A program made the translations under genes and the position numbers. 64,000 nt of DNA from Trypanosoma brucei. Its lineage: Eukaryota. Shown in pieces: positions 7,100-61,131 of the stretch. The notes under the pieces were generated by a model. The model was not told where the DNA came from, searched no databases, and saw only the letters and a list, made by a program, of their open reading frames with translations. Each line of letters opens with the position of its first letter. Within the stretch, counting starts at the first letter, position 1. Location: assembly GCA_000002445.1 (NCBI GenBank), contig CM000207.1, forward strand, positions 1,664,001-1,728,000. Direction: 5' to 3'.

Positions 7100-7146
7100 A
7101 CCCTTATGTTTTTATTTCCTATCCAACACACATATATGTGCGTATT

Positions 7147-7147
7147 A

Positions 7148-7216
<69 letters not shown>
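7147..7216. repeat. (TA)n microsatellite, ~28 perfect units plus an imperfect lead-in
   Basis: Read directly: tatatacatatatatatatatatatatatatatatatatatatatatatatatatatatatatatatat. Confidence 0.95.
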
Positions 7217-7218
<2 letters not shown>

Positions 7219-16443: not shown

Positions 16444-16470
16444 ACACACACGCACACACACACACACACA
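16444..16470. repeat. (CA)n dinucleotide repeat
   Basis: Read directly: acacacacgcacacacacacacacacac. Confidence 0.9.
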
Positions 16471-17446: not shown

Positions 17447-18109
17447 CTAGCACGCACAATCGCTTTTCTTTGTACTAGGCCTTTGTTGGCCCAATCTGAT
17501 GGATTGCGGCAACGCCACCCCCTCTTCCGCAGTAGCTTTCTTTGCTAGCGCAGCTTTACTTACCGTTAAGAACGCCTCTTCCACGCCCACATTTGCCTTT
17601 GCTGATGCTTCAAAGTATTGAATGGATCCCATCGTTTCCTCCCCAGCAGCTGCACCTAAAGAGGCATCACCACCTTCCCCATTTTTTAGTGATTCACACC
17701 AGGCTTCTGCCGTGCGACTGGTCACCTGCCGGCGCTCCGTCAGGTCCGATTTGTTGCCAATCAGCACACATTCCCGCTGGCCCGCTTGAGCGCGAAACTC
17801 TTCCAACCACGAATTAATGTGAGAAAAGGATTCCGAATCGGTAAGGTCAAACACAAGAACACATGCGTCAGCTCCACGATAAAAGGCAGAGCCAAGTGAC
17901 TGGAAACGCTCCTGCCCAGCTGTGTCCCATATTTGCAATGTGACAAGTTTGCCATCGATCTCCACATCCCTCGTGAGAAAATCTGCACCTATCGTCGCCT
18001 TGTACCGGTTGTCAAAGTTTTTATTCACATATTGATGCACCAACGCAGTCTTTCCGACACCGCTATCCCCAAGAATAATTATCTTCAGCAACTGTCGGTT
18101 TGGAGCCAT
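17447..18109 (-). CDS. RAB7: Rab7 small GTPase
   Basis: GDSGVGKT P-loop, effector region YKATIGADF, WDTAGQE, GNKSD and a C-terminal CAC prenylation motif. The sequence is highly similar to Rab7 family members. ATG at 18107-18109. Confidence 0.9.
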   Translation of the reverse strand: MAPNRQLLKIIILGDSGVGKTALVHQYVNKNFDNRYKATIGADFLTRDVEIDGKLVTLQIWDTAGQERFQSLGSAFYRGADACVLVFDLTDSESFSHINSWLEEFRAQAGQRECVLIGNKSDLTERRQVTSRTAEAWCESLKNGEGGDASLGAAAGEETMGSIQYFEASAKANVGVEEAFLTVSKAALAKKATAEEGVALPQSIRLGQQRPSTKKSDCAC

Positions 18110-18412
18110 CTTTCTTTTCCCCCCTCCTTCCTTCCCTTTTTTTTGTTGTTGTTATTATTCTTGTTTCCTTCGGTTCCTTCAATTCAATGTTTCCGCACCC
18201 TCCTCCCTAAATTCACCCGTAGACCCAACGCTCCGGCACAAACGTAAGAGGCACTTGCACTCTACCTTTCCCTTTTAAAGAAAAAAAAAATCTGTAGTTT
18301 GCGGTGTTTAAATCCCTAAAAGTTGCGTTTCCAATAATATTTGTATTTTCTTTTCTTCCTCTGTGTTGTTTCTGCACCTTCCCTTTGGTGCAACTCACCT
18401 TGTCACCTTTTC

Positions 18413-18413
18413 A

Positions 18414-18445
<32 letters not shown>

Positions 18446-18446
18446 A
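18413..18446. repeat. Compound (TA)n(TG)n microsatellite
   Basis: Read directly: atatatatatatatatatatgtgtgtgtgtgt. Confidence 0.9.
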
Positions 18447-18866
18447 CGTGTATATGTGTTTTTGCTTTTTTTTCCTTTTTTTTTGTGTGTTTCTCACCAG
18501 CACTTGGGTGATTTTGCTTCAATATGGGGCTAACGTCAAAGTAGTTTAAAGGCACGAGGGCAATTCAACAACGTACACCACACGAAAGTGATACCAAAAG
18601 GTGGGGAAAAGTGTTGATACAAAACCACAAGAAATAAATAAAGCAAAACAAGAAGAATGAGATGGAGGAAAATAATAATAATAACAATAGTAATAACAAT
18701 AGTAGTAATAATAATAGTATATATGGATTGCGTAAAGAAGAGAATTGGAACAAATCAAATAAAAGAAAGGGCGACGACAGCAGGTAGTCTCTGCCACCTT
18801 CCCTCTCACTTACATGAAAACACACACACACACACATGCATACGCATATAAGCGCAACCACCAACG

Positions 18867-18892
18867 GCAGAAGCAGCAGCAGCAGCAGCAGA
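18867..18892. repeat. (GCA)n trinucleotide repeat in an intergenic spacer
   Basis: Read directly: gcagaagcagcagcagcagcagcaga. Confidence 0.9.
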
Positions 18893-21800: not shown

Positions 21801-21951
21801 AACGAAAAGAACTCAAAGCGATACAAACATCTACGGCAACGCGAGACATGACTGGAGTGGAAACAGCAGCGGAATTGTCATTCTACGTTAACCTCCTCTC
21901 CTGTCTCGAACTTATAACAGCACCGCAAGTCAAAGCCATGCATACACACAC

Positions 21952-27200: not shown

Positions 27201-27759
27201 AAAGAGGCATACGTGAAAAAGAAAAAGTAACTCGTTGCATAAACGAATCGTTCGTCCTGCTCCCCTCACCGCAATTTTTCTCGCAAAAAAAAAAAAAAAA
27301 GTTGAATCCCACGCGTATTTTTTTTTAATTGTATAACTCTATAAAGGTAGATACAGTTATAAATGGGTAGTTGCTTTCTTTTCCTCTTTTTTGCTTTCTC
27401 TTCCTCATCCTTCCCCACACACCACGTCCCTCTCCCCACATCTCCTGTTTTAAACTTGAATGAGCGACTACGGTGTTATCACATGAAACAAGCAGCTCCT
27501 CATTATTAACGATAGCGCTGACAGAAAATATTTAAAACGAACATGAGGCCGCTACTCCCTCAAGTTACAAAAAAAAAATCAAAAACTCACCTTTAAATAG
27601 CGAGTTATAAAGACCCAGCCACCAAAGCATACGTGTGCACGCAAACCTGTGTGCAACAGACCCCCTCACTGACAGGATTTACCTGTTGAATGGTTCAAAC
27701 CCACAGCCACCGATTTGCCATAGAATCTCAAAGTTTTCTCCATCTCTCCATTTTGCAAG

Positions 27760-32797: not shown

Positions 32798-35700
32798 GAC
32801 GATGCTCCAAAAACACACAGAAACGCCTCAGACTCGAAAAGAAAAACAAAAAGAAAATATAGTACCCCCAGGTGTTGGTAGCAGAGCTATTAACACTAAT
32901 GCACTGCGGCACCGCCTCCTTTCCCTCCACCTGCTACGAAATGTCTTCTTCCACTCTTATTTTTGTTTTTTTTGTTCTCCACCTACCCTTTTTTTTTCGC
33001 TTTTAAGCCCTATATGATATTAAAGCTAGAGGAGCACAAACTGGCTCTTAGCAACGCTAATATACCCTTCCCCCAGAAGAAATCATGAAAGCAACAGATA
33101 ATAATATACGTGTATATATGTGTGTAAATATATGTATATACATATAAACAAATATATACGCATCCATGTGCGTACGTGTGCAATTGCATACAGAAAGAAA
33201 AAAGATGCACACAGAGGAAGTAAGGACAAATGTCGGAAGAAAAGAAAACGAATGTTTGTCCCCTGCACACATCGCGAAACCACCAAAGGCGCTTTTTAAA
33301 CTTTCATGCGCTGCGCAGCCGCATCTCCCACAGCTCTACCCGCCAACGAAAGCGGGACAACACAGGCAGAAAATAGAGGGGATGGTAGAGTGATTTGTGA
33401 CATGTCGAGCACCTTGCGTCAAGCTCCCCAAAAACATGTCACATTCCAAGCGGTAATAAACGATCAGCAAAAGAATTATCATTAGAAGAAAAAAAGGAGT
33501 AATAGTATATAAACAAAACGAAAAATAAAAGGAAACAGAAGATAAAGAGAATGGAGACGTGTACAAGTTATTTCCAAAGGCTACGGCCCACACTTGGGAT
33601 CAGCGAGCAGATCCTCTGGAGTTATCTTTTTCTTTCCTTTAAACCTTTTTGTTGTCTTGTTTTGTTTTGGTTTTGGTTTAAACGGTATATATACATACAC
33701 ACACAAACACATACATAAATATAAACGATTTTTCTTTCTTTTCTCCCCCTTTTTTTATTAGTTCCTTCCTTTCTTCTCCATAATAAAGGGAAAGAGAGAG
33801 GTGGGCCGGCATGCGTACGTGAGGGTATCATTTGGTGCAACTCCTACACATTTTGTGTCGAGTCATTCACTACGATGTTAAATAGCTCAACCCTGCAGCG
33901 GGGTGGCGGAGAGGGGGGAAAAAAGAGTAAATGGAAGAGGTGCTGGAAAAATATCGACGAAACCAAAACAAAAAAAAGAAAAGAAAAGGAAAAAAAATAG
34001 TGGTACGACGCAGTGAAGTCAGCTAAAACCCCGAGTAACCTCACGCTCTAAACATTTTTGTCTCGTTTGGTGACGAGTCATTTCATACACTTCCTTGACG
34101 CACCGTGCACAAGAAGAGACATAGGGCATAAACTTCACGAATAGTCCATTCATAAACAACTTTTGCTTCCTTCTTTTTCTTCCTCTTCTTGTAAAAAAAA
34201 AAAACACTTTTCTTTTTCTCCCTTTTCCCATTAACCCGCATTTACTCCCGGTGTCGTTATCTTTCCGTCACCCTTCCATTCCCTTCACCGTAACCTCACC
34301 ACACATACACATTTTTCCCTCTTCCTTCTCCTCACGTCTTCCTTTTTTTTCTTTTCTTTTTCTCTTCGTTTTTCCCCTTTCCCTTTCCCCTACCGCCCTC
34401 TTCCCCCTTTTTGCACTTCACATATCCGGGATAACATGGGGAACGACGAAAACATTAATAATTACAGCTGCCCTCAGTCACATATTCGGCTTATCTTCGC
34501 CTCTGTGCCTGTCCTTTGTCATCTTTTTATTTATTTTTCTTTTCTTTTTTTTTTAATGTGTGTATATGTGGAATAGGACTTACATCATGCCGCGAGTATA
34601 ACAAAGCTTACCACGTACACGCGAGAAAAAAAGAAAACAACAGTAACAATAACAATAACAATAACAAGCAAACAAGCACGTCACAGTGCGTGCCTTCCTC
34701 TCTCTCTCTTTTCAGGCTAACAAACAATCAGACAGACACATACATATGTTTATTTATATATTTATATATTTAATTTGTACACACACAGACACACATACTT
34801 GGAAACATCCAGTTGTAATACCATCTCTCAGCCGCTGCAAACATCTCAACTCCCTGCACCTGTTACTTCCTTTCATTATTATCACTTTTTTTTTTGAACC
34901 TCTCCTTTTGTCCATTTTCTCTTTTATCCTAATTTATGTATCCCTGTCGTCTTCTTCAGTTTTTTCTCTCTTAAATGTTCAAATGGTGTTCAAACGCTTT
35001 TCCCCTTCTTCCCTTTTCCTTCTTTTATTTTACGATTCTAATCATCATATTCTTCTAAAACAAAAATGGGGGGATTTCAGACAGGAGGGATAAAACAACA
35101 ACAACAACATTTTTTCTCCTTTTCCCTACTTCGTTGCGCGTTCACGCGGTCGGACAACTCAGCAGTGCGCAATTAAACAATAACAAAAAAAAATCACTCC
35201 CCTCCAACCTTTTCAGCATCTATCAAATAACCCACACAAGGGAAAAAACAAAACAAAACGGTAGAGTCAGTGAAAAAGACACGGATAGTAAACGAAAGCA
35301 AAGAGAGGTGCAGAAAATAGGCGAAAAGAAAAAAAACATGGAAGATGTGGTGGAATGGAGCAACATTACCTTTCTTCTTTTTTTTTTCCCTCCCCCCCAC
35401 TCCCACTCACACTTCACCTCCTGCAATCACAATAGTAAGAGGTGGGTGGAGAAGCAGCCGCATTTCGCACGGAGGCGCGCCTCCAACCATACATAAAAAA
35501 TACCCATACACACACACACAAAAAAAAAAAAAGAAGCGACATTGAAACGGCACTCGCATTTTTACTCATGGGGTGTCATTTCTCTTTTTCCATTTATTAT
35601 TTTCTTATCGCTTCTGCTTTATTATTCATTCCCTCCACTTGATACCACACCCGAGTCACTTTCTCAACAATACCGGCGGCAGCATTTCTTCTCTCCACAC

Positions 35701-36592
35701 CTCCACATGTCTTCACTCCTTTCATTCTTTCCTTTCTCCTCCCAAAAACAAAGCAAACAAACAAACATAGAGACCCGTGTGCACACTTAAAGGAACAACA
35801 ACAACAACAATTACAACAATATCAACAAAAGGGTAAACATAAAGAGAAAAGAAAAAAAAAAAGATCGACGATGTAACGATGGGAAGGGAAAAGGTTTGAG
35901 GTTACAACATGGAGAAGGAAAATTCCACCATTAGAAAACACAACCTCCTTCCTTCTTCTCCACTCCCTTCTTCCTTTCCCATACGTCATTATTCAGCCCC
36001 ATCCCACCCCCCTCTCTCCCTCTTCCTCTTTTCTCTCTTTTTATCCCTTTCTCCCGGGAAGCATAAATAAATAAAACAAACCGGGGGAAAAAAAAATGAC
36101 ATGACAAATTTAAGGGTGTGGAAATACATTTTTTTTCTTAAGAAAAAAAAAGCAAAAATGAAGAACCGAATAGAAAACAAGTGTTAAAAGAGAAGAAAGG
36201 AAGGCTGTCGCCACAGCACCATCGTGGCAACAGAAAAACAAATCAAAAAACCCACCGCAACGTTCGGGAGGAGTAACAAATTATCATCTAAAGCGAAAAA
36301 AAAAGGTATTAACGTGAAAAAGGAAAAGGAAAGAATGACAGAAAGCAGTGAAAACCAAGAAAGGGAGGGAAGATAGAAGAAGAATGTAAAACATAATAGT
36401 AGAATACTTCACCGTCGCCTAGAGAGAATAGGATCCCAAACACAACCATAGTAAAATATTTAACTAAAGGTTCATCCACACTCCCCTAACTATTTCACGA
36501 ATTTATGCGTGTGTGCTTATTACCTTCTACTCACGCGTTTTAACATGCGATTGCAACAACGGTACCGGAGCATACGGTTGTGCAATGCACCT

Positions 36593-49496: not shown

Positions 49497-50927
49497 CTAC
49501 ATATTATCGGACTGGTTGATTGTGCGGTTGAACGACTTCTTTAGAAATGTGGTGTCACACGAATAATGTCCCGGCCCAGGAAACCTATCAACAGTCCGCT
49601 TAAACCTGCCATCACAGCCCCACTTACTTCGTCCAGAGCTCGCTCTACCAAACGAGGAGTCATGGCAGACATCATATTGCCCGGGGCCCGGGTAATCGCT
49701 CCTGGTGGCTGTAGAAGTTAAACGGGGAGCAGAGCCGAGGTAGCCACCACTAGTACATTTGGGCTTTATAAAGTCGTAATGTTCATCATCCAGAAAATTC
49801 ATAGTGCCTTGATGAGCTTTTGGCTTGATAAATTCAGAGACAGCTTCATTTAGTACGCGCAAGGGATGAATGCGGCGAGGTACACGCTCAGCTTCACGAT
49901 GGGGTACAAGGTCATCCCTCTCTTCAGCCGGTTTTGGTGTTGGAAAACGGGCGACGTTAGACCAAAATGGAACTGAAGCCAACTGGTATTTTGGCCCCTT
50001 CCTCGGAATCTGGGCGTCGTATGATCCGGGCCCAATGTTCGACCGCGCCGGGTATTTTATCCTCTCGGATACCGAGATGAATGGTTTACACCTCCCTTCC
50101 TCGCTATGCACATGAGGCCGTCGCGGGGCAATTTCACCCGTGTACGCTCCCGGACCAGGATATGGGTTTGGCCCATAGGGGCCATCCCGAGCTGATTTGG
50201 TTCCAAAAGCAATTAAAGTCTCTGGATTTGCTGCCCTGTATTGCTCTTTACTCCGAAAAACACTGGGCAAATTGTAGGCTCCTGGGCCCGGGTTGCCGCT
50301 TCCACCACCGTTCTGCGAACGCTCAGTTTTGGAAGTGAATGAAATGGTGGGCTTCCTATTGTAGATCGACGTAAAGGAACCGGCAGATTCGTAATGTCCG
50401 GGGCCGGGACATTTGTTTGTTTCGAGTGGCTTACGGCCGCTATACTCATCGAAACATAACGTTCCCGACTTCGAGCGACGGTGCTTGCAGTTCGGATCAT
50501 AATAACCGGGCCCTGGGGCAATGTGTCCCGTTGTATCTGGTTGGCGAGAAAATCTGATCGGATGGGAACGCGACCGACGCTTGGTCGGGTGTCCATCAAC
50601 CGTGTACGCACCAGGCCCGGGGAAGTCATTGGCCCCATAACCGGCAAACCGTTCTACCTTGGAATTAAAAGGAACCGTTGATATACAACCCTTCTGCAAA
50701 TCGGCTGGTGTGATGTTGTAGGTACCAACACCAGGTATAGCAGCAGCAGCTTCTGCTCCAAACCGTTTGCTAGTGCTGCCAAACGGCGCCATACCACGGC
50801 AACTACGTTGATAGCTGACGTTTATGTCATACGACCCAGGACCAACTCCTGGACCAGTACAGCCTCCAGCACATATACCGGGGACTTTCGCTCTGGAAAG
50901 AGGCAATTCTTCGACCAAATAACTCAT
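49497..50927 (-). CDS. Sperm-tail PG-rich repeat (STPG) protein, likely flagellar/axonemal
   Basis: About nine copies of the PGPGxY / GPGSY motif (GPGSYD, PGPGAYTVD, PGPGYYDPN, PGPGHYESA, PGPGAYNLP, PGPGAYTGE, IGPGSYDAQ, PGPGQYDVC, PGPGHYSCD) at regular ~45-aa spacing. ATG at 50925-50927. Confidence 0.8.
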   Translation of the reverse strand: MSYLVEELPLSRAKVPGICAGGCTGPGVGPGSYDINVSYQRSCRGMAPFGSTSKRFGAEAAAAIPGVGTYNITPADLQKGCISTVPFNSKVERFAGYGANDFPGPGAYTVDGHPTKRRSRSHPIRFSRQPDTTGHIAPGPGYYDPNCKHRRSKSGTLCFDEYSGRKPLETNKCPGPGHYESAGSFTSIYNRKPTISFTSKTERSQNGGGSGNPGPGAYNLPSVFRSKEQYRAANPETLIAFGTKSARDGPYGPNPYPGPGAYTGEIAPRRPHVHSEEGRCKPFISVSERIKYPARSNIGPGSYDAQIPRKGPKYQLASVPFWSNVARFPTPKPAEERDDLVPHREAERVPRRIHPLRVLNEAVSEFIKPKAHQGTMNFLDDEHYDFIKPKCTSGGYLGSAPRLTSTATRSDYPGPGQYDVCHDSSFGRASSGRSKWGCDGRFKRTVDRFPGPGHYSCDTTFLKKSFNRTINQSDNM

Positions 50928-51229: not shown

Positions 51230-53875
51230 TCATATGGTAAAAAATAGAAACACCATTAAGCTTACAATAATACACAACACCACTACAATATGAGATGCAA
51301 AAAAACGGCAGCTTATTCTTTTAAACGGTCGAGATGCGCAGTTCGAACAGAAAAGTGTATCGGATTGAGGCTTATTGTATGCGACCGAGCCTAGTTTGAA
51401 CATCACGAAACACTGGTTACAATAAGGAAAAGAAATAGATTGACTGATTTCTGTCCTGGTGAGCGAACCCCCTCTGGGACAACGGGGTTTACTGCGGCAA
51501 CACGAACCGTAAACCTCTTCACAAAGGAAACATTCCCAAATTGCTGACTGTTGAGGATGGTTCACACAACAATGTTTGTCTGATGAGAGAAGCCAGAGCT
51601 TGTGTCCGTTGCTGCATTGTGGGATCCATGACTTGTAGTATAACTCAAAAACAAAAACGAGGGCTGTCTCCATCCACTCCGTTAAAGTGACCAAATGTGG
51701 AAATTCGTCACTGAAACCAGCATTAGAAGACTGGGCATAGAAAGGAATACCCTCGTTTTCAGCATTGAATCTTACATCTACAGGTCCCGAAAATTTGCAC
51801 GACATCCGAGTACCACGAAAATAAAGATCCTTACTGTCCCCCACACGATCCGTATATTCTCCTTCACCAGAAGGACGTGAGGAAGCGCTCGTCGCTGCCG
51901 TTAATCTGGACACGCGAGAGGAGCGTCGTTCGTCAACCACACGTATTATTCCGTCAAAAGATTTCGCAAGATAATCAAGAGATAAACGCAATGAACACTT
52001 TGTATCATCGCTTATACCATCCTCCCCCAGCCGCACCTCCGTAGCCAGATAAACTTCGGCAAGAAAATGAAGCGTTTCCTCGGCGTGTGGTTTCATTATT
52101 CGCACTATTCCATCTTCGCCCATCCAATTTAGAGTAAAGTAGCGACAGATTGTTTCGATGATACCGCATCTTGCATTAGTAGTAGCGTTACTCACTTCAC
52201 GAAACACGTTTTGTACCGCTGTGGATGTGAATACTTCAACACACCGTGACCAAATCGTCGCTCCTGTAACGTCGATAGCTTCCAAAAAGCTGCTTCTCAA
52301 GAACATGAGAATGACGTCAAACAGGATAAAACTATAAGCTTCATAATGATGAACAACGTACGACTCGCTTACATCATCCACACGTCCTGTAGGACTCACC
52401 ACGGCATACCACAGCTCAAGTGCATTGTTAAAGTGTTCTCTTCTGCAGTCATCGTAATTCTCAAATGAGATCAGTGCTTGACGCAAGACACTTAGAGTAT
52501 TTCGATAAAACGAAATGTGGGGATTAAGCACATCCCACACCGCAGGGGTAATATGAGAATCACAAAAATCTTTTCTCACTGCATTATCACCTTCCCAACA
52601 GCTTGTATAAATTCTCCCGCGATCTTTCTGACAAAGTGCGAAAAGGCACTCTGTCAAAAAAGGAACTAGTCTGAATACCAGCGCAGCCGAAGCAACGTCT
52701 CTGCAAGAAAGTCGATGTTTCTCACGGTCTACCTTACTTACACTCCTCGCCCAGAGATGACTTGGTGCCGATAAAAGCAACGCAGCCGTAACGTCTGATA
52801 CCGACCACTGAATATCTCCGAAAGAACGCTTGGAACTAAGTTTCTGAATGCAAGTTGACGATACAAAATATTGAATGTAAGCAGTCAACAACCGGTGGTA
52901 TAAAGGCAACCCCGTAATATATGAACCTTTAAATAAACGAACAACTGCCTTGAAAAATACATTGATTTTTCCTCCCATAGCATTTATTCGAGGTAGCCTC
53001 ACAACGTCGCTACAGCATTCCTCTGTACGGCGGACGCCGTAGAGTAGCATACGCAAAATGAAATAAGAAATTGGCGAACACCGAAGGGAAGTCAAAACAC
53101 GCCTACTGCTCGGTTCCAGTCGTGTCACGAGTGGTGGTGCCCAGAACGGTACAAGCATTAATGGGGGGCAGCGGGAACGTGGAAGGTCAAACAAGTTGGC
53201 TTCGGGTGCCTCCTCAAACAGCTCATGAAACGTGGGATGGAAGGTGGAAAACGGAAAGTCAAAATAACGGAGGTACGAGCCAGTTTCTATTTCGGTTTCA
53301 GCGTCTCCCTTCCAAGATTTCTTTAGCTTTACAGCAAAGTCATGTTGCGGAAGCGACAGGGCCTCCAGCAAGTAACAGAAATAGCCCCCAGGAGCCAAGA
53401 ATCGAAATAGTGCGAGCGCTGTTTTACCATTGGGGTTTGAGTTTGCAACATCCATCCATGATAATTCACCCGCTCCACTTCTACGTCCGTCGTGGAAAGG
53501 GGAACCAAACGTCATATCGCATATGTTGAGAAACCCACCTTTGTCCAAAAATGTGTCTAATACCAGTTTCGTTTCATAGTGAAGTGGTTGAAGTGGAAAA
53601 GAAACACGTTTGAAAAAATCTTCTAGAGAACTTATTTTTTTATCTACACCCATGCTTAATATAACTACGGCTACAAATTCTACAACTCTAAAACCAGCAG
53701 TACGAGCAAAGGGAGAAGCACAAAAAATGAAAAGACGTATTAGGAAACCAAGAATCAGAAGTGGACTCTTAAAATAGACATGCAAAAGCGAGGGTCCCCC
53801 CAAGCACGGGGTCGGTGGGTTAACAGCAATAAAATGATAGCTCATTATATCATTAACTAAACCCTCGTGCAACAT
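51230..53875 (-). CDS. Large hypothetical protein (881 aa) with a C-terminal Cys-rich region and a C-terminal transmembrane segment
   Basis: ATG at 53873-53875. There are no recognisable catalytic motifs. The C-terminus CVNHPQQSAIWECFLCEEVYGSCCRSKPRCPRGG...CNQCFVMF...CSNCASRP ends with a hydrophobic tail (IVVVLCIIVSLMVFLFFTI). This is the first gene of the minus-strand unit, adjacent to the strand-switch region. Confidence 0.55.
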   Translation of the reverse strand: MLHEGLVNDIMSYHFIAVNPPTPCLGGPSLLHVYFKSPLLILGFLIRLFIFCASPFARTAGFRVVEFVAVVILSMGVDKKISSLEDFFKRVSFPLQPLHYETKLVLDTFLDKGGFLNICDMTFGSPFHDGRRSGAGELSWMDVANSNPNGKTALALFRFLAPGGYFCYLLEALSLPQHDFAVKLKKSWKGDAETEIETGSYLRYFDFPFSTFHPTFHELFEEAPEANLFDLPRSRCPPLMLVPFWAPPLVTRLEPSSRRVLTSLRCSPISYFILRMLLYGVRRTEECCSDVVRLPRINAMGGKINVFFKAVVRLFKGSYITGLPLYHRLLTAYIQYFVSSTCIQKLSSKRSFGDIQWSVSDVTAALLLSAPSHLWARSVSKVDREKHRLSCRDVASAALVFRLVPFLTECLFALCQKDRGRIYTSCWEGDNAVRKDFCDSHITPAVWDVLNPHISFYRNTLSVLRQALISFENYDDCRREHFNNALELWYAVVSPTGRVDDVSESYVVHHYEAYSFILFDVILMFLRSSFLEAIDVTGATIWSRCVEVFTSTAVQNVFREVSNATTNARCGIIETICRYFTLNWMGEDGIVRIMKPHAEETLHFLAEVYLATEVRLGEDGISDDTKCSLRLSLDYLAKSFDGIIRVVDERRSSRVSRLTAATSASSRPSGEGEYTDRVGDSKDLYFRGTRMSCKFSGPVDVRFNAENEGIPFYAQSSNAGFSDEFPHLVTLTEWMETALVFVFELYYKSWIPQCSNGHKLWLLSSDKHCCVNHPQQSAIWECFLCEEVYGSCCRSKPRCPRGGSLTRTEISQSISFPYCNQCFVMFKLGSVAYNKPQSDTLFCSNCASRPFKRISCRFFASHIVVVLCIIVSLMVFLFFTI

Positions 53876-56800
53876 CAGAGTACCAGTCTCGGCGCTATTT
53901 CATTACGAAAGAAAAGCGCAAAAAGCTATAACAGTGATTCGAAAGAATGGAAAGCCCCTCGAAGGCACTAATCTTCGCGGGTCTTGATCAGCGTTACATC
54001 CGAAATAACATAACTTCCTTTCCGCACTTCCCATATTCACACCTCAAATCGGCGAAATAAACTGCAAGTACCGAGAGATAGTATCGGCAGTAAAATTGTT
54101 GGAATTGCATGATATTATGGACCACATACGACCCTCAGTCAACACGTCTTCCGGAACAATAGTAGACATAACAGAAAAAAGGAACGAAAATCACCAAAAA
54201 AGCAACTTGAACCACTAACCCATCCTCAGAGGCACTATCGAACGTGTACTGGAATAAAACGATCACAACTCCATCGATAAGGTGAATAAAAATATGAAAC
54301 CAGAACAAAAATGGAAAGATATCACATGTGAATGTCCTTTTGTTTTCAAAAAGAAAAAAAAAAAAGAAAAACGCGTGGCCCCCGTCCTCCGCACACAGGT
54401 GTCGGCTGGGGACCACTTACGCAAAAAAAAAGTTAGATTTAACATAATTCTAGATTCAAAGGACACCTGAAAGACCGTCCGTTTACGTTTGCTGCCTTTC
54501 CACACACATATAGACAGCTGAAACATCTGCAAAGTGACGGTAGCACCCAGCTAACCGCAGCAACGGCATCTGCAGTCGGTCCAAGTGCTCTCCCGGACTA
54601 CTCCACACAACCCCCCATAGTAGGTCTATACACCCTCTTCCCTAAAACTAAATATCTTGACAATTAAGGAACTACCACCTAACTTCCCACACACCCCTGA
54701 GTATTCGGTGCCTGAGATCCCCCAACCTCTGGCTCACTATAACCTTACGACCCGTTTGGGCGGCAACTGTTGCCGGCACCTTTGCGTGGTTAGCAAAAAA
54801 AATCATTTAAAATCATCCTTATCAAATCTCTTGTGAACCACGACGTCGAAAGTATCAACAATACGAAAAGGTACCTGTATTTTCTTCGCGCATGCTGCTC
54901 CTCTTCACCCGCCGCGACGACTCCAGTCCCTATCTGAACCGTTCGTTCACGCTTTTGTTCTGTCGAGGACAACTTTCATTTGTATATAGTACCTGCACTT
55001 GGGTACCTGAGCTCTGTAAACCCCTCGCTATTATGCGGCGAGGTGCTCATGTTATCGACGGCATGGCAACGGCACGGCTTTTCAGTTGTGCGAGAGGATC
55101 TCGCAACGAGGCGGGAATTACCTTTTACCCCAGTCGTTCCACGGTGGCCCCGTAGGCATTCAGTATTCTTTATACTGGCACTCCCATTTTCCACATCTTC
55201 CCCATCGTACGGCAACAATCTAAAACTGCACGTTGCCTTTCCCGGAGCATGGGAAACCTAAGTCAGCGCCGCATAGGCATCCAAATCTCCGACCGCTGCG
55301 CCACCACCGCACCCTACTTTTTTTTCTTTTCTACAGCTGAAGACGCAGTGCTTCAGCATCGGTGGTCATCTACAGTGCTCGATATTATCCCGGGACCCTG
55401 CTCTGGGCACTTCTCTTTGGCACGCCCTTCTGGCAGACACTCGCCACACACCTTCCCACATATCGAACCGGGTTACATCCATTCGAGCGGTCAAAACGCC
55501 ACACCGACACTACATGAGTGCCCTCCGGAATACCTTGCATCATTGTCCCGCAAGCACGCCCCTGTTCCCGCTCTAACTGTCACACTTGGCTCAGAAATGA
55601 CCTCTCACAAAGAAGAACATTTGGGTTAGAGCCTCAGGCCCTTGTTTCGTGGTCATCCTCCCTAACCCCCCCCAAAAAAAGCCACACATATGCGCTATCA
55701 CTTCGGATGATTCATCGTCGCTTTTTCTTTGCGGTTTCAACTTCCCTGTCATCACTAATCTGGGGTATGCGTTTGGACCCCGGGGGACCAGATTCTACAT
55801 CCCATATCCTTCCCAGCAGGCAATCCTTCGTACCTCCCTCTTCTCCACGTCTTGACGAACCCCCGTATCCGACTTCTCCCTTAACTGTTCAGGTACCGCC
55901 TGGATCACTGGACCTCTGAAACGGGACTCTGCGGACGGGGTACCGACAAGCTCCCGACGTGCATAATCCACTCTGAGGCATTTTTCTAGCTTAATTAATT
56001 GCCTCCATTTGGTCTCCCCTGGGCCTCTTCACCACGTAGCCCGCTGCCGCCCATTTTGCGGAACAGTATCACGTTGCGCGCTAATGCATCACTGGGCACC
56101 TTTGACCATCCACAGGAAGCTGTATGTGTCGCCCTGGAAGCCCCTTCAGCACGGATATAAACGAGGTTTTTCTCGACCCCCTTTCGCAGCGCACTATCTC
56201 CATTAAGTTCCCTCAGCGCTCCCACCGGTACCCGTTGATTTCACCCAAAGTATTTCAGTGTGCCATTGCGGAGCCAAGCGGCAAACCTCTCTTCCAAAGT
56301 TGTCACCCCCTTCCACTTGAGCGCAGGACGTGTGTGTTCGAAGGCTTTTCCTCAGCGCGCAGTGGGCCCTTCCCCCCGTCAAAATAGACATATCCGCCAC
56401 CGCCACTTCCCCGCCCCCCTTGTGCCGGAGCAGCTGCGTCACGGTGTCGGCACCGCGTGTGCGACAGGTTCGCGGCGGAGAGTCCCCCTTTCCGGTCATT
56501 TCATTGTGCTCAATCCCGAAGTGACCGGAAACAAGCCGTGCCGACGTGCACGCGGGTCTGTTGATGAATTGCTCCTGGCAACTTGTGCGGTGTACGTGGC
56601 AAATTCTGCGCAAACCGGCGCTGCACCAGAGGCTTGGAATGAGGGACACGGAGTCAACGAACGTCATAAACCCAACTTCCTCTCTTGCTCCCCACCTTTT
56701 TTTTTCGGAGGTTCTCCGAACGTCACTTCCGTCGCAACGTTCTCTCCTTGTTAACCGCACCCTAGCCTGCGAGCCCCTTTAAATGACCAGGTCCGTTCCC

Positions 56801-59800
56801 CATCCTCGTCAAATATGATGGCCCCAGCCCAAATAGTCATGACCAACGCGGTTGAGTCAACGGCGTGGATCTGATGGCGCGCTGTGGGACGCCTTCTAAC
56901 CCTCATTATCGTTTAAACCTCATTTTCTCCTTCCGGCACGTCCTCCTTTATTTTACCCGGGGGAAGCCTGCTTTCGCAATCTTTCAACTAGTAGCGGTGC
57001 TTTTGCCCCAACGGAGAAAATTTGACCCCTAGAAGCTGCTTTACCAACCCTCTGCAGCGCCCAACTCCATATGAGCAGATTAACCACGTGGTAAAGTTTT
57101 CCGGTGGTCCTGCTGCGTTCTGTGGTTCCGGCAGCCAATATAATTTAGCATTCCATTACGCTCTCGCAAACCTCCTTCAACAACGGGTGATCCTGCCTCT
57201 TTCAGCACGTCGCTCCCGTTCACGCTCAATGGAACGTGCACTACGGTACTTACTGCCTGAGATTATGGTCTCCCGGGAGGTGTTTGGTTTCTCTCTGAAA
57301 CAAATAAAAGACAGGATTGAATTCTGCGGCACACCCATGACCATGGTGCTTCGATATGAAGTGTCCTTCACTTTTCTTCCATGGCTTCACTCCAGTAAGA
57401 AAACCGTTTTTAACTTCACCAGCATTTCTGTTGTTGCTGAAGACGCCCTTTGCATACACATTGCGGATCCATCGATTTTTTTTTTTAGTGTATAACCCTG
57501 CAGATTCGGTTTTTCATTCTCTTCTTTTTTTCCCCAAGCACCACTGGGGTCTACGGGGTTAGTGCCGCTGCACCAAACAATGTGTGTTCCCTCTTCCTGG
57601 CACAGGTCCCTCCATAGTAGCCCTACTCCCGGTATGCAGAACAGCAAAATCATTCCTAGAGACCGCCTTTTTCAGTCCATGATATCAGCATTCAAACGCA
57701 CAATCGTTATATCGACCCTGAAGAAACAGTTTCTGATACCGGGTGGTTTGCTCCGTAGCTTTTGTAACCACGCAGTTGTCAAAAGCGAGCAAAACACGGT
57801 TCAACATCAAATATTGAGGCATATCACATGCTGCTGTGACACTTTCCAACGTGGTGCTGTCAACTCCGACTCTCACCGCCTTGTTGCGTGGAAAGCTTCC
57901 AACGGGTCATACAATACTGTCACAGTCCGCTGGGTGGAAGCGTGCGAGTATGGTCTGCGAAAGTTATGACGACGGAAACTAAGGTTTTTTCTTCGCTTTG
58001 AATTCCCAGGAGTTGAGCTACCCATCTGATTTGGAATAGTGTGGGCGGAATCCTGCCGGGCGTCTCTGTGATTTCTCTTTGCAAGCACTCGGAACCATCT
58101 CAAAGACACGCATACTGTCACCATGCTAAGCGTGCAGGCTTGCGTTACGGGAAAAGATGGCGGCGTGCTGATGTCAGGCTTGGTCCTTACTCTGTGCAGT
58201 ATCGTGGTGCCATGCTTCCTCTTTCTCGGCGGTTTTCCGTCCTATGGCCAGGGGAGAGGATAAACGGCTTCAGCAAACATAGCGGACTGTTATCCCTTGG
58301 TTTCTTCAACTGTTTGCAGTGAGATTTTTTTTTGACTGCTATGGACCTGCTTAGAAACGTCCACACCTCAGTTATGCGTTCAACCGGCTGAAACGCCTCG
58401 GTAGTTTCATCCCTAGAAGCCGGCACCCTGATCAGTGGTGCGTCGGGGTGCTTTGTCCACCGCGCTTGATGCGTCTCTGCACGAGTTTCGGTTGACCGTG
58501 GCTGCGCCAGCGGACGGCTGCCTACCACCAGACCTGCACATGACAGTGGTTATGAGTTGTAAACGGATGCTGCATAGTCGACGCTACTCCTCTCCGCGTT
58601 TGACAGTTGGGAGTCGTAGTTGCCCCTTGGGGCAACGACTCTAACACGTATGGTCCATATGCTAAAACGGCTAAGGCCATCCTTTTTGTTACCCTCCAGG
58701 GGCTTTCCGATGACGTGGGTTGCGGTCGGTACATTTCTTCACCATACCAACAAAACCAACCCCTACCCTCTACGGAGAACCGTTTCGCCAGTACTACGCA
58801 AAGGTATTTTTCGCCTGACTGAAACTCTGGCTGTTTTATAAGGCTGTTTCTCTATGTCGGGTATCGGCTTTTTTTTCATCGTCGAGGTTTCGCTCTCTTC
58901 AGCAGAAGTAACTTTCTCGAACCCAGGTCCAGCGTTGCTATCTCCGTCTCGGGGCTGGGGCGGCGGCTTTAGACGGTATTCGGCAGTGTTTGGCTGTCCG
59001 GTTTGCGTCCAACGCCCCATCATGACACCACCACATCCTTGTTGCACTTCGGGCTTTGGCGGTTCCCATTCCTTCACCAACATGTCGGTCCACCGTTGTC
59101 CTGCTTCCAGGACTCCCCGGAAACACGGGAGCCCAAGACGCAGTGGGGTGGCTGCCGGACCGCACACTTCCTCGAGGTTTTCGAGCTCTCTGTGCTTCCA
59201 TTCAGACTCCTGTAGAGGTAGGCTGGTGTGGCAGTGAGGTGAACGTCGAGGGTGAACGTGGGGTGCTGTGGTTACTCCTCCAATCGATCCTAATCTCGTT
59301 GCCCCCCTCGGGCTTCCGGTCCCACTGCACTCCGACCGACTCGTTCACCGCCGTCACCACTCACGCTGAAGTGGACCGGAACGGTCCGCGCTTGACAACC
59401 GGAAGTAACTTTTCTACCTTTTCCGGCACGCCCGAGCACCTTGTGCGGGGAGCGGCAGGTCGCCGCACCCCGCAGAGAATTTTCGCTGTGGACAGTGCGT
59501 CGCCACCTGACGAGCCGGCCGTTGGCGGGGTCTATTGGTGCTGCCCGCAGCGTAGTCGGGGGTGCCTCCTCTCCTCCTCGCTGGAGTTCAGTGGCGGGCC
59601 ACGCCTTTGGTTCCCTCGCCGGTGTCGTGGATGCTTTGCCTTTAACGATTTCGAAGACGGGGTTAAGACGAAGGTGCTGGTCATACCGCAGGCCTCGGTG
59701 TTACGTTTCATGTGGGGCGGCACTGTGACCATGTAGCCTTTACTTTGCAAAATTTACTGTGTGTATGGCGGGCATGGGTGCTAGATGCACCTCGGTGGGT

Positions 59801-60060
59801 TGCATATGCACGGCACTGAGTCTATTTGGCATCTGATGCGTCGGCAATGCACCTTTCGACGTTTTAAAGGGGTTCTGACTGTGCACTTATGTGTTGAAAT
59901 CAGGATGTGAACATTTTGGTACAGGGTACGTTCGCAGGTAGCGCCTTTCCATCCCTTTTGCTTCACAGTTCATATTTTACCACTTCAAAATTCTGTTTTT
60001 TCATTGTTTCCTTGATTTAGTGTAAAGTATTTTAAGCAGGGGCTCGACCGCCGTTATCTC
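53876..60060. promoter_or_regulatory. Divergent strand-switch region, the probable bidirectional RNA Pol II transcription start region. The ~5.5 kb core (54420-59950) is GC-rich, repeat-poor and ORF-free.
   Basis: Every credible gene below 53875 is on the minus strand and every credible gene above 60061 is on the plus strand. Between them there are only short overlapping ORFs on both strands, the pattern expected of GC-rich non-coding DNA. A purine tract at 54344-54368 and a pyrimidine tract at 59950-60055 are the presumptive first splice-acceptor regions. Confidence 0.7.
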
Positions 60061-61131
60061 ATGGCGTCGCGTTTGGCTGCGTTTCAACCGGACATCATCG
60101 AGTTCTTTCTAGCGAATAAAGCATCTTTGCAAACACTTCGGAAGGAATGGCGTGCAGTGGAAAAGGGCTTTGTTGGCTACTTCAAGGATTTCAGGGATAC
60201 TCTAAAGGAACTGAGGGGCAAAGAGCAGGCCGATAAACAAGAAGGCAAAAAAGAAGAGCTTTCATCTGGTTCGCGTGCTGTCAATCAGTTTTATGAGTCG
60301 GAAGAACTGGCGAAAAGAATGAAGTGGAAAAGGATAACATGGGATGAGGAAGCAGATTATAACGGCTTTGCGAGACGGCTTCTCGACAATGACGACCTAA
60401 TTAAAAGTGTACCTGCGTTCTCGTTTTTGGCAATCCACGTGGCGAAGGATTCCTCTTGCGCCGATTTTGTTCGCTTCCCTCCTCGGGAGCAGCGCTTTGA
60501 GTCGGGAACGCTGACAAACTGGGTTCTCAGCGAAAGGACTCCGGCCACAGTCGAATGTTATAAGCCAAGCAAGGTAAGGAGTATGCGAAGCCCCTTCGAG
60601 GTAGATTGGACTGCCGGCGAGGCGAGGGTTGTCGATACAACTTCTATACAAGAGGTCTTGGTGTTTTTGCAAACTGTTGCTCCAAGACTTCAAGCCCTAC
60701 AGGTGCGTATGGAAGAGCAACAGAATCAAATTGCCAAAGACATTCCGAAACTGAAGCTTCGCGTCGGTGCGGAAATAAGGTACAATAAGCATGATACAAC
60801 TGCGTGGGACGACCCCAACAGGTGTGCGGATCCCGATTATGTGACCCCAGACGATGTTCAGCAGTTCGTTGAGGGAATGATGAAGTCCGCCTTGCTTTAC
60901 CGTTGGTTTCTCAAGGATCAGCGTGTGCGCATTATGCCCCCCGGGCGCCCGTACTTACTGAATCCAGAGAGAAAGGAAGTGCAAATCCCCGCGAATTTTG
61001 CCGCCTATAACTGGTGGGGGGCACATGCCAGATTCCAAAAAGTGGAGGCGTTCATACTGTTCACGATCAATATGTGGTGGCTTTGGTTCACACTGGCTAT
61101 TGTTATCGTTGGGGATGTGGAGATTCTGTAA
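60061..61131 (+). CDS. Hypothetical protein (356 aa) with a C-terminal transmembrane segment
   Basis: ATG at 60061. The ORF is protein-like and non-repetitive, with a hydrophobic C-terminus (FILFTINMWWLWFTLAIVIVG). It is preceded by a pyrimidine-rich tract. Confidence 0.6.
   Translation: MASRLAAFQPDIIEFFLANKASLQTLRKEWRAVEKGFVGYFKDFRDTLKELRGKEQADKQEGKKEELSSGSRAVNQFYESEELAKRMKWKRITWDEEADYNGFARRLLDNDDLIKSVPAFSFLAIHVAKDSSCADFVRFPPREQRFESGTLTNWVLSERTPATVECYKPSKVRSMRSPFEVDWTAGEARVVDTTSIQEVLVFLQTVAPRLQALQVRMEEQQNQIAKDIPKLKLRVGAEIRYNKHDTTAWDDPNRCADPDYVTPDDVQQFVEGMMKSALLYRWFLKDQRVRIMPPGRPYLLNPERKEVQIPANFAAYNWWGAHARFQKVEAFILFTINMWWLWFTLAIVIVGDVEIL

What the first reader, a model, noticed from the sequence alone, without database searches (positions are those of the whole stretch)
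53876..60060. Unusually large, GC-rich, repeat-poor divergent strand-switch region with no credible genes
The two polycistronic units diverge here. Every other intergenic region in the window is AT-rich and full of homopolymers and microsatellites. This ~5.5 kb core (54420-59950) is compositionally different: it is GC-rich and non-repetitive, and it produces overlapping medium-length ORFs on both strands, which is what high-GC non-coding DNA does. A block of this size and composition at a transcription start region fits three readings: (i) a degenerate retroposon relic (DIRE/ingi-like) or an RHS fragment, both of which are common at T. brucei strand-switch regions; (ii) unannotated non-coding RNA or promoter elements; or (iii) simply the dispersed Pol II initiation zone. 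There is a T8 run at 58870-58877, and a perfect palindrome ggcaactgttgcc at ~54758-54770.
Basis: partly seen in the sequence, partly recalled or inferred. Interest (0 to 1): 0.6.

Follow-up and report, generated by a model that had tools for sequence, protein, structure and literature searches.

The report
Ordinary large divergent transcription start region
This 6 kb GC-rich, gene-free stretch is the already mapped region on Trypanosoma brucei chromosome 9 where two gene arrays start transcription in opposite directions; it is unusually long compared with related species, but I found no retroelement, RHS gene or RNA gene in it.

Summary
Window 54421-59750 has GC 0.53, almost no microsatellites and no tandem arrays. 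It lies between a minus-strand and a plus-strand gene array, whose long spacers have GC 0.38-0.40. The window is Tb927_09_v4:1,664,001-1,728,000. The flanking genes are Tb09.211.2460 and Tb09.211.2530, which Kolev et al. 2010 list as first ORFs of two 'Divergent' Pol II units. The six internal ORFs (Tb09.211.2470-2520) are annotated 'hypothetical, unlikely' and gave no detectable transcript. No novel transcript was reported there.

Tests here found no coding signal:
- no period-3 signal
- no Pfam domain in six frames (no RT, endonuclease or RHS)
- no 77-nt retroposon signature
- no Rfam or tRNA hit
- no internal repeats
- no homologue for the one ORF searched exhaustively

The block differs between T. 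brucei strains 2-6 times more than flanking CDS.

The same gene pair flanks a divergent switch of 0.5 kb in T. cruzi, about 1 kb in T. theileri and T. melophagium, and 2.7 kb in L. braziliensis. The three Trypanosoma switches are also far GC-richer than their ordinary spacers.

Verdict: an ordinary, already known, large divergent strand-switch region. The origin of the extra ~5 kb is unresolved.

The parts
51230..53653 (-). CDS of Tb09.211.2460 (EAN77060), the first gene of the leftward polycistronic unit. The real product is 807 aa. The annotated 881-aa ORF runs on to 53875.
   Evidence: The exact protein is T. brucei TREU927 EAN77060. The coordinates match Tb927_09_v4 1715230-1717875, and Kolev Table S1 lists its start codon as misannotated. 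Orthologues are 803-811 aa in other species.
53687..53770 (-). Trans-splice acceptor (AG at 53689-53688, first mRNA base 53687) and its polypyrimidine tract, for the left gene.
   Evidence: Kolev Table S1 gives the transcript 5' end at 1717687, which is window 53687. The minus-strand sequence shows a pyrimidine-rich run, then 'tag', then the ATG at 53653.
53771..54420 (.). AT-rich left shoulder (GC 0.38-0.43). It has A runs on the plus strand (A12 at 54354-54365), which are T runs on the sense strand of the leftward unit. It is G+T-rich on the minus strand.
   Evidence: A+C on the plus strand is 0.608 over 53654-54800.
54421..57500 (.). Left half of the GC-rich core. The plus strand is C- and T-rich (GC skew -0.1 to -0.33). 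This is the most polymorphic part of the locus.
   Evidence: Composition. Mismatches against T. b. gambiense are 22-34 per kb in 500-bp bins. Against T. b. equiperdum IVM-t1 the figure is 22.4 per kb. Flanking CDS show 2-10 per kb. No period-3 signal.
57501..59750 (.). Right half of the GC-rich core (GC up to 0.66 at 59300-59600). The plus strand is T-rich and GC skew is about 0.
   Evidence: Mismatches are 4-6 per kb against gambiense through 59499, rising to 16 per kb in the 59500-59999 bin, and 8.9 per kb against IVM-t1.
55249..55629 (+). Tb09.211.2470 (EAN77061), 'hypothetical protein, unlikely'.
   Evidence: for identity. Kolev Table S2 lists it as giving no detectable transcript.
55707..55919 (+). 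Tb09.211.2480, 'hypothetical protein, unlikely' (70 aa).
   Evidence: ORF list. Coordinates and absence of a transcript come from Kolev Table S2.
56203..56667 (-). Tb09.211.2490 (EAN77063), 'hypothetical protein, unlikely'.
57229..57495 (+). Tb09.211.2500 (EAN77064), 'hypothetical protein, unlikely'. It lies in the 166-codon open stretch 56995-57492.
   Evidence: An exhaustive phmmer search of 56995-57492 against 1.84 billion proteins found only itself and a spurious match to a repeat protein.
57634..57969 (+). Tb09.211.2510, 'hypothetical protein, unlikely'.
   Evidence: Kolev Table S2 coordinates 1721634-1721969.
58763..59083 (-). Tb09.211.2520 (EAN77066), 'hypothetical protein, unlikely'.
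59751..60060 (+). Right shoulder. It is G+T-rich on the plus strand, with a T-rich tract at about 59950-60030 just before the first plus-strand gene. The splice-acceptor region is inferred, not mapped here.
   Evidence: G+T is 0.587 over 59451-60060. Sequence.
60061..61131 (+). CDS of Tb09.211.2530 (EAN77067, 356 aa), the first gene of the rightward unit.
57220..57221 (.). An empty site in TREU927. T. equiperdum OVI carries 249 extra bases here, made up of 239 bases of sequence that end in an ingi/RIME-type 5' end, followed by an N10 assembly gap.
   Evidence: L006:5783-5811 reads CCCTGGCGATGCCGGCCACCTCAACGTGG; it shares CCCTGGC (bases 1-7) and bases 11-29 with the published L1Tc Pr77 and differs at bases 8-10.
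54762..54774 (.). About 1.5 such sites are expected by chance.
58869..58876 (+). It is one of six plus-strand T runs of 7 or more bases between 55318 and 58876.

Best explanation
This is the divergent strand-switch region, or RNA polymerase II transcription start region, between Tb09.211.2460 (leftward unit) and Tb09.211.2530 (rightward unit) on T. brucei chromosome 9. It holds no gene.

Shown:
- Two gene arrays diverge here.
- The arrangement is ancestral to trypanosomatids.
- The interior lacks any coding or known-RNA signal and changes fast between strains.
- Published 5'-triphosphate RNA-seq assigns both flanking genes to 'Divergent' Pol II units, and no stable transcript arises inside.

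Inferred from work on other T. brucei start regions (Siegel 2009 as cited in PMC5579346; Wedel 2017; Tiengwe 2012):
- Pol II initiates in a dispersed way in both directions, from two broad zones of H2A.Z/H2B.V/H4K10ac chromatin at the two shoulders.
- The sense strands there are G+T-rich, as at the promoters Wedel described.
- The zone between the shoulders is not productively transcribed and may bind ORC1/CDC6.

My reading of the composition: the core is GC-rich and repeat-poor because it lies outside the UTR and RNA-processing spacers. The T-rich polypyrimidine tracts and low-complexity runs of those spacers make ordinary intergenic DNA AT-rich.

The extra ~5 kb relative to T. cruzi-clade species is lineage-specific DNA of unknown origin. 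It is under no detectable sequence constraint.
For: Identity:
- The window proteins are T. brucei TREU927 EAN77059/60/67.
- The coordinates of Tb09.211.2460-2520 in Kolev Tables S1/S2 match the window ORFs with a constant offset of 1,664,000.
- Table S14 lists Tb09.211.2460 (-) and Tb09.211.2530 (+) as first ORFs of 'Divergent' units.
- All six internal ORFs appear in Table S2, 'not producing a detectable transcript'.
- There is no novel transcript on chromosome 9 between 1,566,550 and 1,733,648.

No coding signal:
- Period-3 power is 1.8-3.4 in the core. Shuffles give a 95th percentile of about 4.4, and real CDS give 6.7-16.2.
- The six-frame Pfam scan is empty.
- There is no Rfam or tRNA hit.

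No constraint:
- Mismatches against gambiense are 18 per kb with 10 indels in the core, against 2-10 per kb and no indels in CDS.
- The same pattern holds against IVM-t1.

Synteny:
- The same gene pair flanks divergent switch regions of 504-512 bp (T. cruzi), 1078 bp (T. theileri), 1015 bp (T. melophagium) and 2682 bp (L. braziliensis).
- In the three Trypanosoma species the switch region is GC-richer than the flanking CDS, and about 0.2 above other spacers.

Ordinariness within T. brucei:
- The other three divergent switches on chromosome 9 also hold runs of untranscribed annotated ORFs, mostly called 'unlikely'. Those ORFs alone span at least 2.3 kb, at least 3.6 kb and at least 11.4 kb.

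Strand composition:
- G+T on the sense strand is 0.61 at the left shoulder and 0.59 at the right shoulder. This fits the GT-rich promoters of Wedel 2017.
Against: - No chromatin or nascent-RNA data could be mapped here. The positions of the initiation zones within the 6 kb are therefore inferred.
- The central 3 kb (54801-57800) is C+T-rich on the plus strand. It is G+T-rich on neither strand, and the promoter model does not explain this.
- A fast-changing block staying at GC 0.53 in a genome whose spacers sit at 0.39 is not explained by 'absence of UTR signals' alone.
- The twelve-fold size difference from T. cruzi has no demonstrated cause.
- The transcript data are from procyclic forms only.
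Confidence: 0.82

Rival explanations
1. The extra ~5 kb is the eroded remnant of an old insertion, such as a DIRE/ingi-type retroposon, an RHS or LRRP pseudogene, or another gene. It now sits inside the start region. This concerns origin and can coexist with the best explanation.
For: - The block is absent from the syntenic switch regions of T. cruzi, T. theileri and T. melophagium.
- Its GC content (0.50-0.60) and the plus-strand excess of C and T over 54800-57800 resemble minus-strand CDS composition.
- The site does receive such elements. T. equiperdum OVI carries an ingi/RIME 5' end at 57220/57221.
- T. vivax has an RHS pseudogene (RHS_N, E = 1.2e-31) in an 8-kb GC-rich block upstream of the orthologue.
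- Another chromosome 9 divergent switch holds an annotated 'Ingi-like sequence' and an LRRP pseudogene.
- Stop codons are mildly depleted (350 against 382 +/- 14).
Against: - No RVT, endonuclease, RNase H, RHS_N, RHSP or any other Pfam domain at E <= 1 in six frames.
- No Pr77 signature.
- No correctly placed poly(A) or poly(T) end.
- No period-3 signal.
- No similarity to the T. vivax RHS block.
- The annotated ORFs cluster only with syntenic Trypanozoon copies.
- The TREU927 annotators flagged 'Ingi-like' elsewhere on the chromosome but not here.
Confidence: 0.2
2. The core encodes one or more unannotated non-coding RNAs, such as lncRNAs or promoter-associated RNAs, with a function of their own.
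For: - Kolev 2010 report sense and antisense 5'-triphosphate reads at all putative Pol II initiation regions.
- Plus-strand T runs at 55318-58876 could serve as polypyrimidine tracts.
- Later studies report about 1,400 lncRNAs in T. brucei.
Against: - No Rfam family at E <= 1 beyond noise, and none in the whole window.
- No novel transcript in this interval in Kolev Table S7.
- The sequence differs between strains faster than the flanking spacers do.
- The reported lncRNAs are less GC-rich than mRNAs.
Confidence: 0.08
3. One or more of the six annotated ORFs, or another open stretch, is a real Trypanozoon-specific protein-coding gene.
For: - The ORFs are kept as open frames in T. equiperdum and partly in T. 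b. gambiense.
- There are more open stretches of at least 100 codons than in shuffles (17 against 11.3 +/- 2.6).
Against: - Annotated 'unlikely'.
- No transcript.
- No period-3 signal.
- Codon log-likelihood is near or below zero apart from two short patches.
- ORF lengths differ between strains (154 against 116 aa; 88 against 110 aa).
- There are 10 indels against gambiense.
- No homologue outside Trypanozoon for the stretch tested.
Confidence: 0.03

Closest known systems
T. brucei divergent transcription start regions (Siegel 2009; Kolev 2010; Wedel 2017)
   Same: - Two polycistronic units diverge here.
- The flanking genes are listed as first ORFs of 'Divergent' Pol II units.
- The interior is several kb long and filled with untranscribed 'unlikely' ORFs, like the other three divergent switches on chromosome 9.
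- The sense strands are G+T-rich at both shoulders.
   Different: Nothing essential differs. The central 3 kb is C+T-rich on the plus strand rather than G+T-rich on either strand. Chromatin marks were not checked for this locus.
Syntenic divergent strand-switch regions in T. cruzi, T. theileri, T. melophagium and L. braziliensis
   Same: The flanking gene pair and orientation are the same. In the three Trypanosoma species the switch region is also GC-richer than the flanking CDS, and about 0.2 above ordinary spacers.
   Different: They are 0.5-2.7 kb long, against 6.2-6.4 kb here. There is no detectable sequence similarity. L. braziliensis shows no GC elevation.
DIRE / ingi / RIME retroposons (ingi/L1Tc clade)
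   Same: The size (~5 kb) and the location at a strand switch are typical of DIREs. A related strain has an ingi/RIME 5' end inserted inside the block.
   Different: There is no Pr77 signature, no RT, endonuclease or RNase H remnant, no poly(A) end and no sign of multiple copies.
RHS (retrotransposon hot spot) genes and pseudogenes
   Same: In T. vivax an RHS pseudogene lies upstream of the orthologue of Tb09.211.2530, in a GC-rich block.
   Different: The T. brucei block has no RHS_N, DUF7578 or RHSP match in any frame.
Mammalian CpG-island promoters (the analogy drawn by Kolev 2010)
   Same: It is a GC-elevated, dispersed, bidirectional initiation zone without defined motifs.
   Different: CpG observed/expected is 0.93, the same as in CDS (0.96) and spacers (0.91). 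There is no CpG enrichment as such.

Membership tests
T. brucei divergent Pol II transcription start region | Two polycistronic gene arrays diverge from the region. | tested here: met
   All long ORFs left of 53875 are on the minus strand, and those from 60061 are on the plus strand. The same divergent pair occurs in four other species.
T. brucei divergent Pol II transcription start region | Primary (5'-triphosphate) transcripts start here in both directions. | not testable with these tools
   Taken from the literature only. Kolev 2010 Table S14 lists Tb09.211.2460 (-) and Tb09.211.2530 (+) as first ORFs of 'Divergent' units. Read positions inside the 6 kb were not available.
T. brucei divergent Pol II transcription start region | Enrichment of H2A.Z/H2B.V, H4K10ac and BDF3. 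| not testable with these tools
   No ChIP-seq data can be mapped with these tools. [quoted passage not shown]
T. brucei divergent Pol II transcription start region | G+T-rich sequence on the sense strand of each unit (Wedel 2017). | tested here: inconclusive
   Sense-strand G+T is 0.61 over 53654-54800 (minus strand) and 0.59 over 59451-60060 (plus strand). The central 54801-57800 is G+T-rich on neither strand. The published 10-mers were not available to score.
T. brucei divergent Pol II transcription start region | No mature mRNA arises from the interior. | tested here: met
   Checked here against published tables. The six ORFs are in Table S2 (no transcript) and Table S7 has no novel transcript in the interval. 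The data are from procyclic forms only.
ingi/RIME/DIRE retroposon | Conserved 77-79-nt 5' signature (Pr77). | tested here: not met
   The best local alignment of the published L1Tc Pr77 to 53654-60060, on both strands, scores 28. The shuffle mean is 27.2, and 44% of shuffles score at least as high. Positive control: the T. equiperdum insert matched at E = 1e-11 with its own 29-mer and at E = 3.6e-5 with Pr77.
ingi/RIME/DIRE retroposon | Remnants of the AP-endonuclease, reverse transcriptase and RNase H coding regions. | tested here: not met
   Six-frame translations (stops written as X) scanned against Pfam-A at E <= 1. The only hit was MDMPI_C at E = 0.023, which is noise.
ingi/RIME/DIRE retroposon | 3' poly(A) end and target-site duplication. 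| tested here: not met
   A runs of 7 or more bases occur only at 54354, 54423, 54795 and 55674. T runs occur at 55318-58876. None is paired with a 5' signature. Target-site duplications were not searched separately.
ingi/RIME/DIRE retroposon | Dispersed and multi-copy in the genome. | tested here: inconclusive
   The 90%-identity clusters of four internal ORFs hold only syntenic Trypanozoon copies. No copy lies elsewhere in the 64-kb window. The whole genome could not be searched.
RHS gene or pseudogene | RHS_N, DUF7578 or RHSP (P-loop) domains. | tested here: not met
   There is no hit in any of the six frames. Positive control: T. vivax L001:3734-4831 gives RHS_N at 1.2e-31, DUF7578 at 2.7e-7 and RHSP at 6e-4.
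Known structured RNA genes (tRNA, snRNA, snoRNA and others) | A match to an Rfam covariance model, or a tRNA fold. | tested here: not met
   ARAGORN finds no genes in the window. Rfam with E-value threshold 1 gives three chance-level hits far below their gathering scores. Rfam at gathering scores finds nothing in the whole window.

The most novel reading that the evidence does not exclude
The GC-rich block is a 'promoter island'. Its base composition is actively maintained, while its sequence turns over freely. The maintaining force could be an initiation-linked or ORC-linked mutation bias, biased gene conversion, or selection on nucleosome or H2A.Z properties.

Three observations would fit:
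- The syntenic switch regions of T. cruzi, T. theileri and T. melophagium share the GC elevation (about 0.2 above ordinary spacers) but share no sequence with T. brucei.
- The T. brucei core stays at GC 0.53 even though it is the fastest-changing part of the locus.
- Its central 3 kb carries a strong plus-strand C+T excess.
Probability: 0.15. Interest if true: 0.45.

Novelty: already known. Interest (0 to 1): 0.12.

Why it matters
It matters little as a discovery. The locus was already annotated as gene-free ('unlikely' ORFs) and already mapped as a divergent Pol II start region.

The comparison made here adds two modest points:
- This strand switch is ancestral to trypanosomatids, but it is 6-12 times longer in T. 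brucei than in T. cruzi-clade species.
- GC elevation relative to ordinary spacers is shared by the syntenic switch regions, even though their sequence is not.

If the second point held genome-wide, it would bear on how trypanosomes mark promoters that lack sequence motifs. That needs a genome-wide test, not this single locus.

Tried and rejected
- **Joined-segment protein searches.** I ran two homologous-protein searches with open segments of the region joined by X (3695 aa from the minus strand; 1155 aa from the six longest stretches). Both returned nothing, not even the annotated ORFs that are known to be in the database. I treat them as uninformative, not as negatives.
- **Exhaustive search with a joined query.** Only one stop-free stretch, 56995-57492, could be searched exhaustively. 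It found itself and a spurious 12-fold match of 21 residues to a bacterial-type repeat protein, P0054.
- **Similarity to other loci.** tblastn of 163 open segments against the syntenic loci and the rest of the window gave only chance-level hits.
- **Codon scoring.** Codon-usage log-likelihood gave two short positive patches (57101-57400 plus strand, 58901 minus strand) that coincide with 'unlikely' ORFs. I did not count them as coding, because period-3 signal, transcripts and homologues are all absent.
- **A remembered RHS resemblance.** From memory, I suspected that the minus-strand stretch 58766-59344 resembled an RHS N-terminal motif. Neither Pfam RHS_N nor comparison with the T. vivax RHS sequence confirmed it.
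- **Simple sequence features.** G-quadruplex motifs are not enriched in the region, G/C homopolymers are not, and CpG is not enriched. Internal direct or inverted repeats are only 16-27-nt chance-sized pairs.
- **Data I could not reach.** The T. congolense orthologue has no contig on record, so the closest outgroup could not be examined. The supplementary tables of the lncRNA catalogue (PMC9200285) are not held. TREU927 itself is not in the contig index for the 356-aa protein.
Full report
**What is there**

The window is from Trypanosoma brucei brucei TREU927 chromosome 9. The proteins encoded at 49497-50927, 51230-53875 and 60061-61131 are exact matches to EAN77059, EAN77060 and EAN77067.

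The coordinates printed in the supplementary tables of Kolev et al. 2010 (PMC2936537) fix the position. Tb09.211.2460 at 1717875-1715230, and the six ORFs Tb09.211.2470-2520, all coincide with window ORFs at a constant offset of 1,664,000. The window is therefore Tb927_09_v4:1,664,001-1,728,000. The finding is the interval between Tb09.211.2460 (minus strand) and Tb09.211.2530 (plus strand).

**Checking the observation**

The description is accurate.
- The core 54421-59750 has GC 0.529. Only 2.1% of its bases lie in homopolymers of 6 or more, and 0.2% in microsatellites.
- The five long spacers of the window have GC 0.376-0.396, with 6.4-9.3% in homopolymers and 2.8-5.3% in microsatellites.
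- Tandem Repeats Finder reports 71 array rows in the window, none beyond 35828.
- No internal direct or inverted repeat exceeds 27 nt.
- Overlapping open stretches exist on both strands, the longest 236 codons. Dinucleotide-preserving shuffles predict slightly fewer: 17 against 11.3 +/- 2.6 stretches of at least 100 codons, and 350 against 382 +/- 14 stops.

Some details need correction.
- The T8 run is at 58869-58876. It is one of eleven homopolymer runs of 7 or more bases.
- The 13-nt palindromic motif is at 54762-54774 and is expected by chance.
- The true left edge is the mapped splice acceptor at 53687. The real start codon is at 53653, giving 807 aa as in the orthologues. The annotated ATG at 53875 is not the start.

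**Is anything encoded?**

I found no evidence that anything is.
- Period-3 power in five 1-kb blocks of the core is 1.8-3.4 times the spectral median. That lies inside the shuffle range (95th percentile about 4.4). Five real CDS in the window give 6.7-16.2.
- All six reading frames, with stops masked, give no Pfam-A match at E <= 1 apart from one noise hit.
- There are no tRNAs.
- No Rfam match approaches a gathering score, in the region or anywhere in the window.
- The open stretch with the best codon score (56995-57492) was searched with phmmer against 1.84 billion representative proteins. It found only itself and a spurious repeat match.
- TREU927 annotates the six internal ORFs as 'hypothetical protein, unlikely'. 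Their 90%-identity clusters contain only the syntenic copies from T. b. gambiense, T. equiperdum and T. b. equiperdum, with differing lengths.
- All six are in Kolev's list of annotated ORFs giving no detectable transcript.
- Kolev's list of novel transcripts has nothing on chromosome 9 between 1,566,550 and 1,733,648.

**The retroelement and RHS reading**

The published 77-nt L1Tc signature (Pr77, oligonucleotide list of PMC1874656) aligns to the region no better than to shuffled sequence (score 28 against a mean of 27.2).
- No reverse transcriptase, endonuclease, RNase H, RHS_N, DUF7578 or RHSP match exists in any frame.
- As a positive control, the same Pfam library recognises an RHS pseudogene in T. 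vivax at 1.2e-31.
- On the same chromosome the annotators labelled an 'Ingi-like sequence' and an LRRP pseudogene inside another divergent switch. They labelled nothing of the kind here.

The reading is therefore unsupported. An insertion eroded beyond recognition cannot be excluded. The neighbourhood does show that such elements land here.
- T. equiperdum OVI has 249 extra bases at the site equivalent to 57220/57221. They end in CCCTGGCGATGCCGGCCACCTCAACGTGG, an ingi/RIME-type 5' end, followed by an assembly gap.
- T. vivax has the RHS pseudogene in an 8-kb GC-rich block upstream of the orthologue, where synteny with the left-hand array is lost.

**Comparison with other species**

The orthologue of Tb09.211.2530 was found throughout trypanosomatids. 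The same divergent pair, an 803-811-aa gene on the minus strand and a 357-358-aa gene on the plus strand, flanks a strand switch in every other species examined except T. vivax (synteny lost) and T. grayi (contig ends).

| Species | Switch length | GC of switch | GC of other spacers |
|---|---|---|---|
| T. cruzi | 504-512 bp | 0.44 | 0.21 |
| T. theileri | 1078 bp | 0.39 | 0.19 |
| T. melophagium | 1015 bp | 0.43 | 0.22 |
| L. braziliensis | 2682 bp | 0.47 | 0.47 |
| T. brucei | 6.2-6.4 kb | 0.51 | 0.44 nearby short; 0.38-0.40 long |

- The switch is ancestral, and the T. brucei version is 6-12 times longer than in the T. cruzi clade.
- No DNA or translated similarity links the T. brucei block to any of these loci.
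- In the three Trypanosoma species the short switch regions are also GC-richer than their flanking CDS, and far GC-richer than their other spacers. L. braziliensis is flat.
- Within T. brucei, all four divergent switches on chromosome 9 contain 5-9 intervening gene identifiers. Those ORFs are untranscribed, mostly called 'unlikely', and span several kb.

**Constraint**

- Against T. b. gambiense the core has 18 mismatches per kb and 10 indel events. Flanking CDS have 1.9-9.8 per kb and no indels.
- Against T. b. equiperdum IVM-t1 the left half has 22.4 per kb, the right half 8.9, and CDS 2.8-9.4.
- The core thus changes at or above the rate of ordinary spacers, which argues against a sequence-specific function for most of it.
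- Divergence from gambiense drops sharply near 57500, from 22-34 to 4-6 per kb. The left-hand gene is likewise more diverged than the right-hand genes. This looks like a boundary between haplotype blocks inside the switch region.

**How it most likely works**

Shown: two arrays diverge here, the interior has no gene, and published primary-transcript data assign both flanking genes to divergent Pol II units.

Inferred from work on other T. brucei start regions:
- Pol II initiates dispersedly and bidirectionally within two broad domains of H2A.Z/H2B.V and acetylated histones, with G+T-rich sense-strand elements contributing (Wedel 2017).
- H4K10ac typically forms two separate peaks in a divergent switch, with ORC1/CDC6 bound between them (Tiengwe 2012).

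The strand composition fits this layout in part. The left shoulder (53654-54800) is 61% G+T on the minus strand, and the right shoulder (59451-60060) is 59% G+T on the plus strand. The central 54801-57800 is G+T-rich on neither strand and is instead 58% C+T on the plus strand.

I attribute the GC-richness and lack of simple repeats mainly to the block lying outside the UTR and RNA-processing spacers. Polypyrimidine tracts and low-complexity runs make those spacers AT-rich. This step is an inference. It does not by itself explain why a fast-changing block holds GC 0.53.

**Verdict**

The feature is an ordinary, already annotated and already mapped divergent transcription start region.

What remains open is the origin of the lineage-specific 5 kb. 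It is also open whether GC elevation at strand switches is a maintained property. The latter is the most novel reading not excluded. I give it about 15%, and it needs a genome-wide test.

Noticed in passing
window 53654-53875 (minus strand): The annotated 881-aa ORF of Tb09.211.2460 starts upstream of the mapped trans-splice site (53687). The real start is the ATG at 53653, giving 807 aa, as in T. equiperdum, T. cruzi, T. theileri and others. Kolev 2010 Table S1 already lists this, but the GenBank protein EAN77060 keeps the long form.
   Followed up: yes
L006:5573-5821 (T. equiperdum OVI), equivalent to window 57220/57221: There is a 249-base insertion that is absent from TREU927, T. b. gambiense and T. 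b. equiperdum IVM-t1. It consists of 210 bases of unique sequence, then a 29-base ingi/RIME-type 5' end (CCCTGGCGATGCCGGCCACCTCAACGTGG), then N10. It is probably a retroposon insertion collapsed at an assembly gap. The nature of the 210 bases is unknown.
   Followed up: partly
window ~57500: Divergence between TREU927 and T. b. gambiense changes sharply. It is 22-34 mismatches per kb across 54500-57500 and 9.8 per kb in the left gene. It is 4-6 per kb across 57500-59500 and about 2 per kb in the right-hand genes. This looks like a boundary between haplotype blocks, possibly an old recombination point, inside the switch region.
   Followed up: partly
L001:1-10000 (T. vivax): Synteny with the left-hand array is lost in T. 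vivax. Upstream of the orthologue lies an 8-kb block of GC 0.52-0.65, against 0.28-0.42 in the conserved genes. The block holds an RHS pseudogene truncated just after its P-loop motif (3734-4831). It also holds an uncalled 528-codon minus-strand ORF (6407-7993) with no Pfam match.
   Followed up: partly
L003, L004, L005, L008 (T. cruzi, T. theileri, T. melophagium): Ordinary intergenic spacers at this locus are extremely AT-rich (GC 0.19-0.22), and the conserved CDS have GC of only 0.32-0.41. The short divergent switch regions stand out at 0.39-0.44, with CpG observed/expected of 1.2-1.5.
   Followed up: partly
window 6308-12032, 15928-21951, 24241-27759, 32798-36592: There are four spacers of 3.5-6 kb within the minus-strand array with no ORF of 300 aa or more. 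Their GC is 0.38-0.40 and they are dense in homopolymers and microsatellites, including (AT)34 at 7148-7215. They may hold small genes or very long UTRs. I did not examine them.
   Followed up: no
window 55318-58876: All six homopolymer runs of 7 or more T/A bases in this part of the core are T on the plus strand, and none is A. AT skew turns negative at about 54800, roughly 3 kb to the left of where GC skew reaches zero (about 57800). The two skews therefore place the 'switch point' at different positions.
   Followed up: partly
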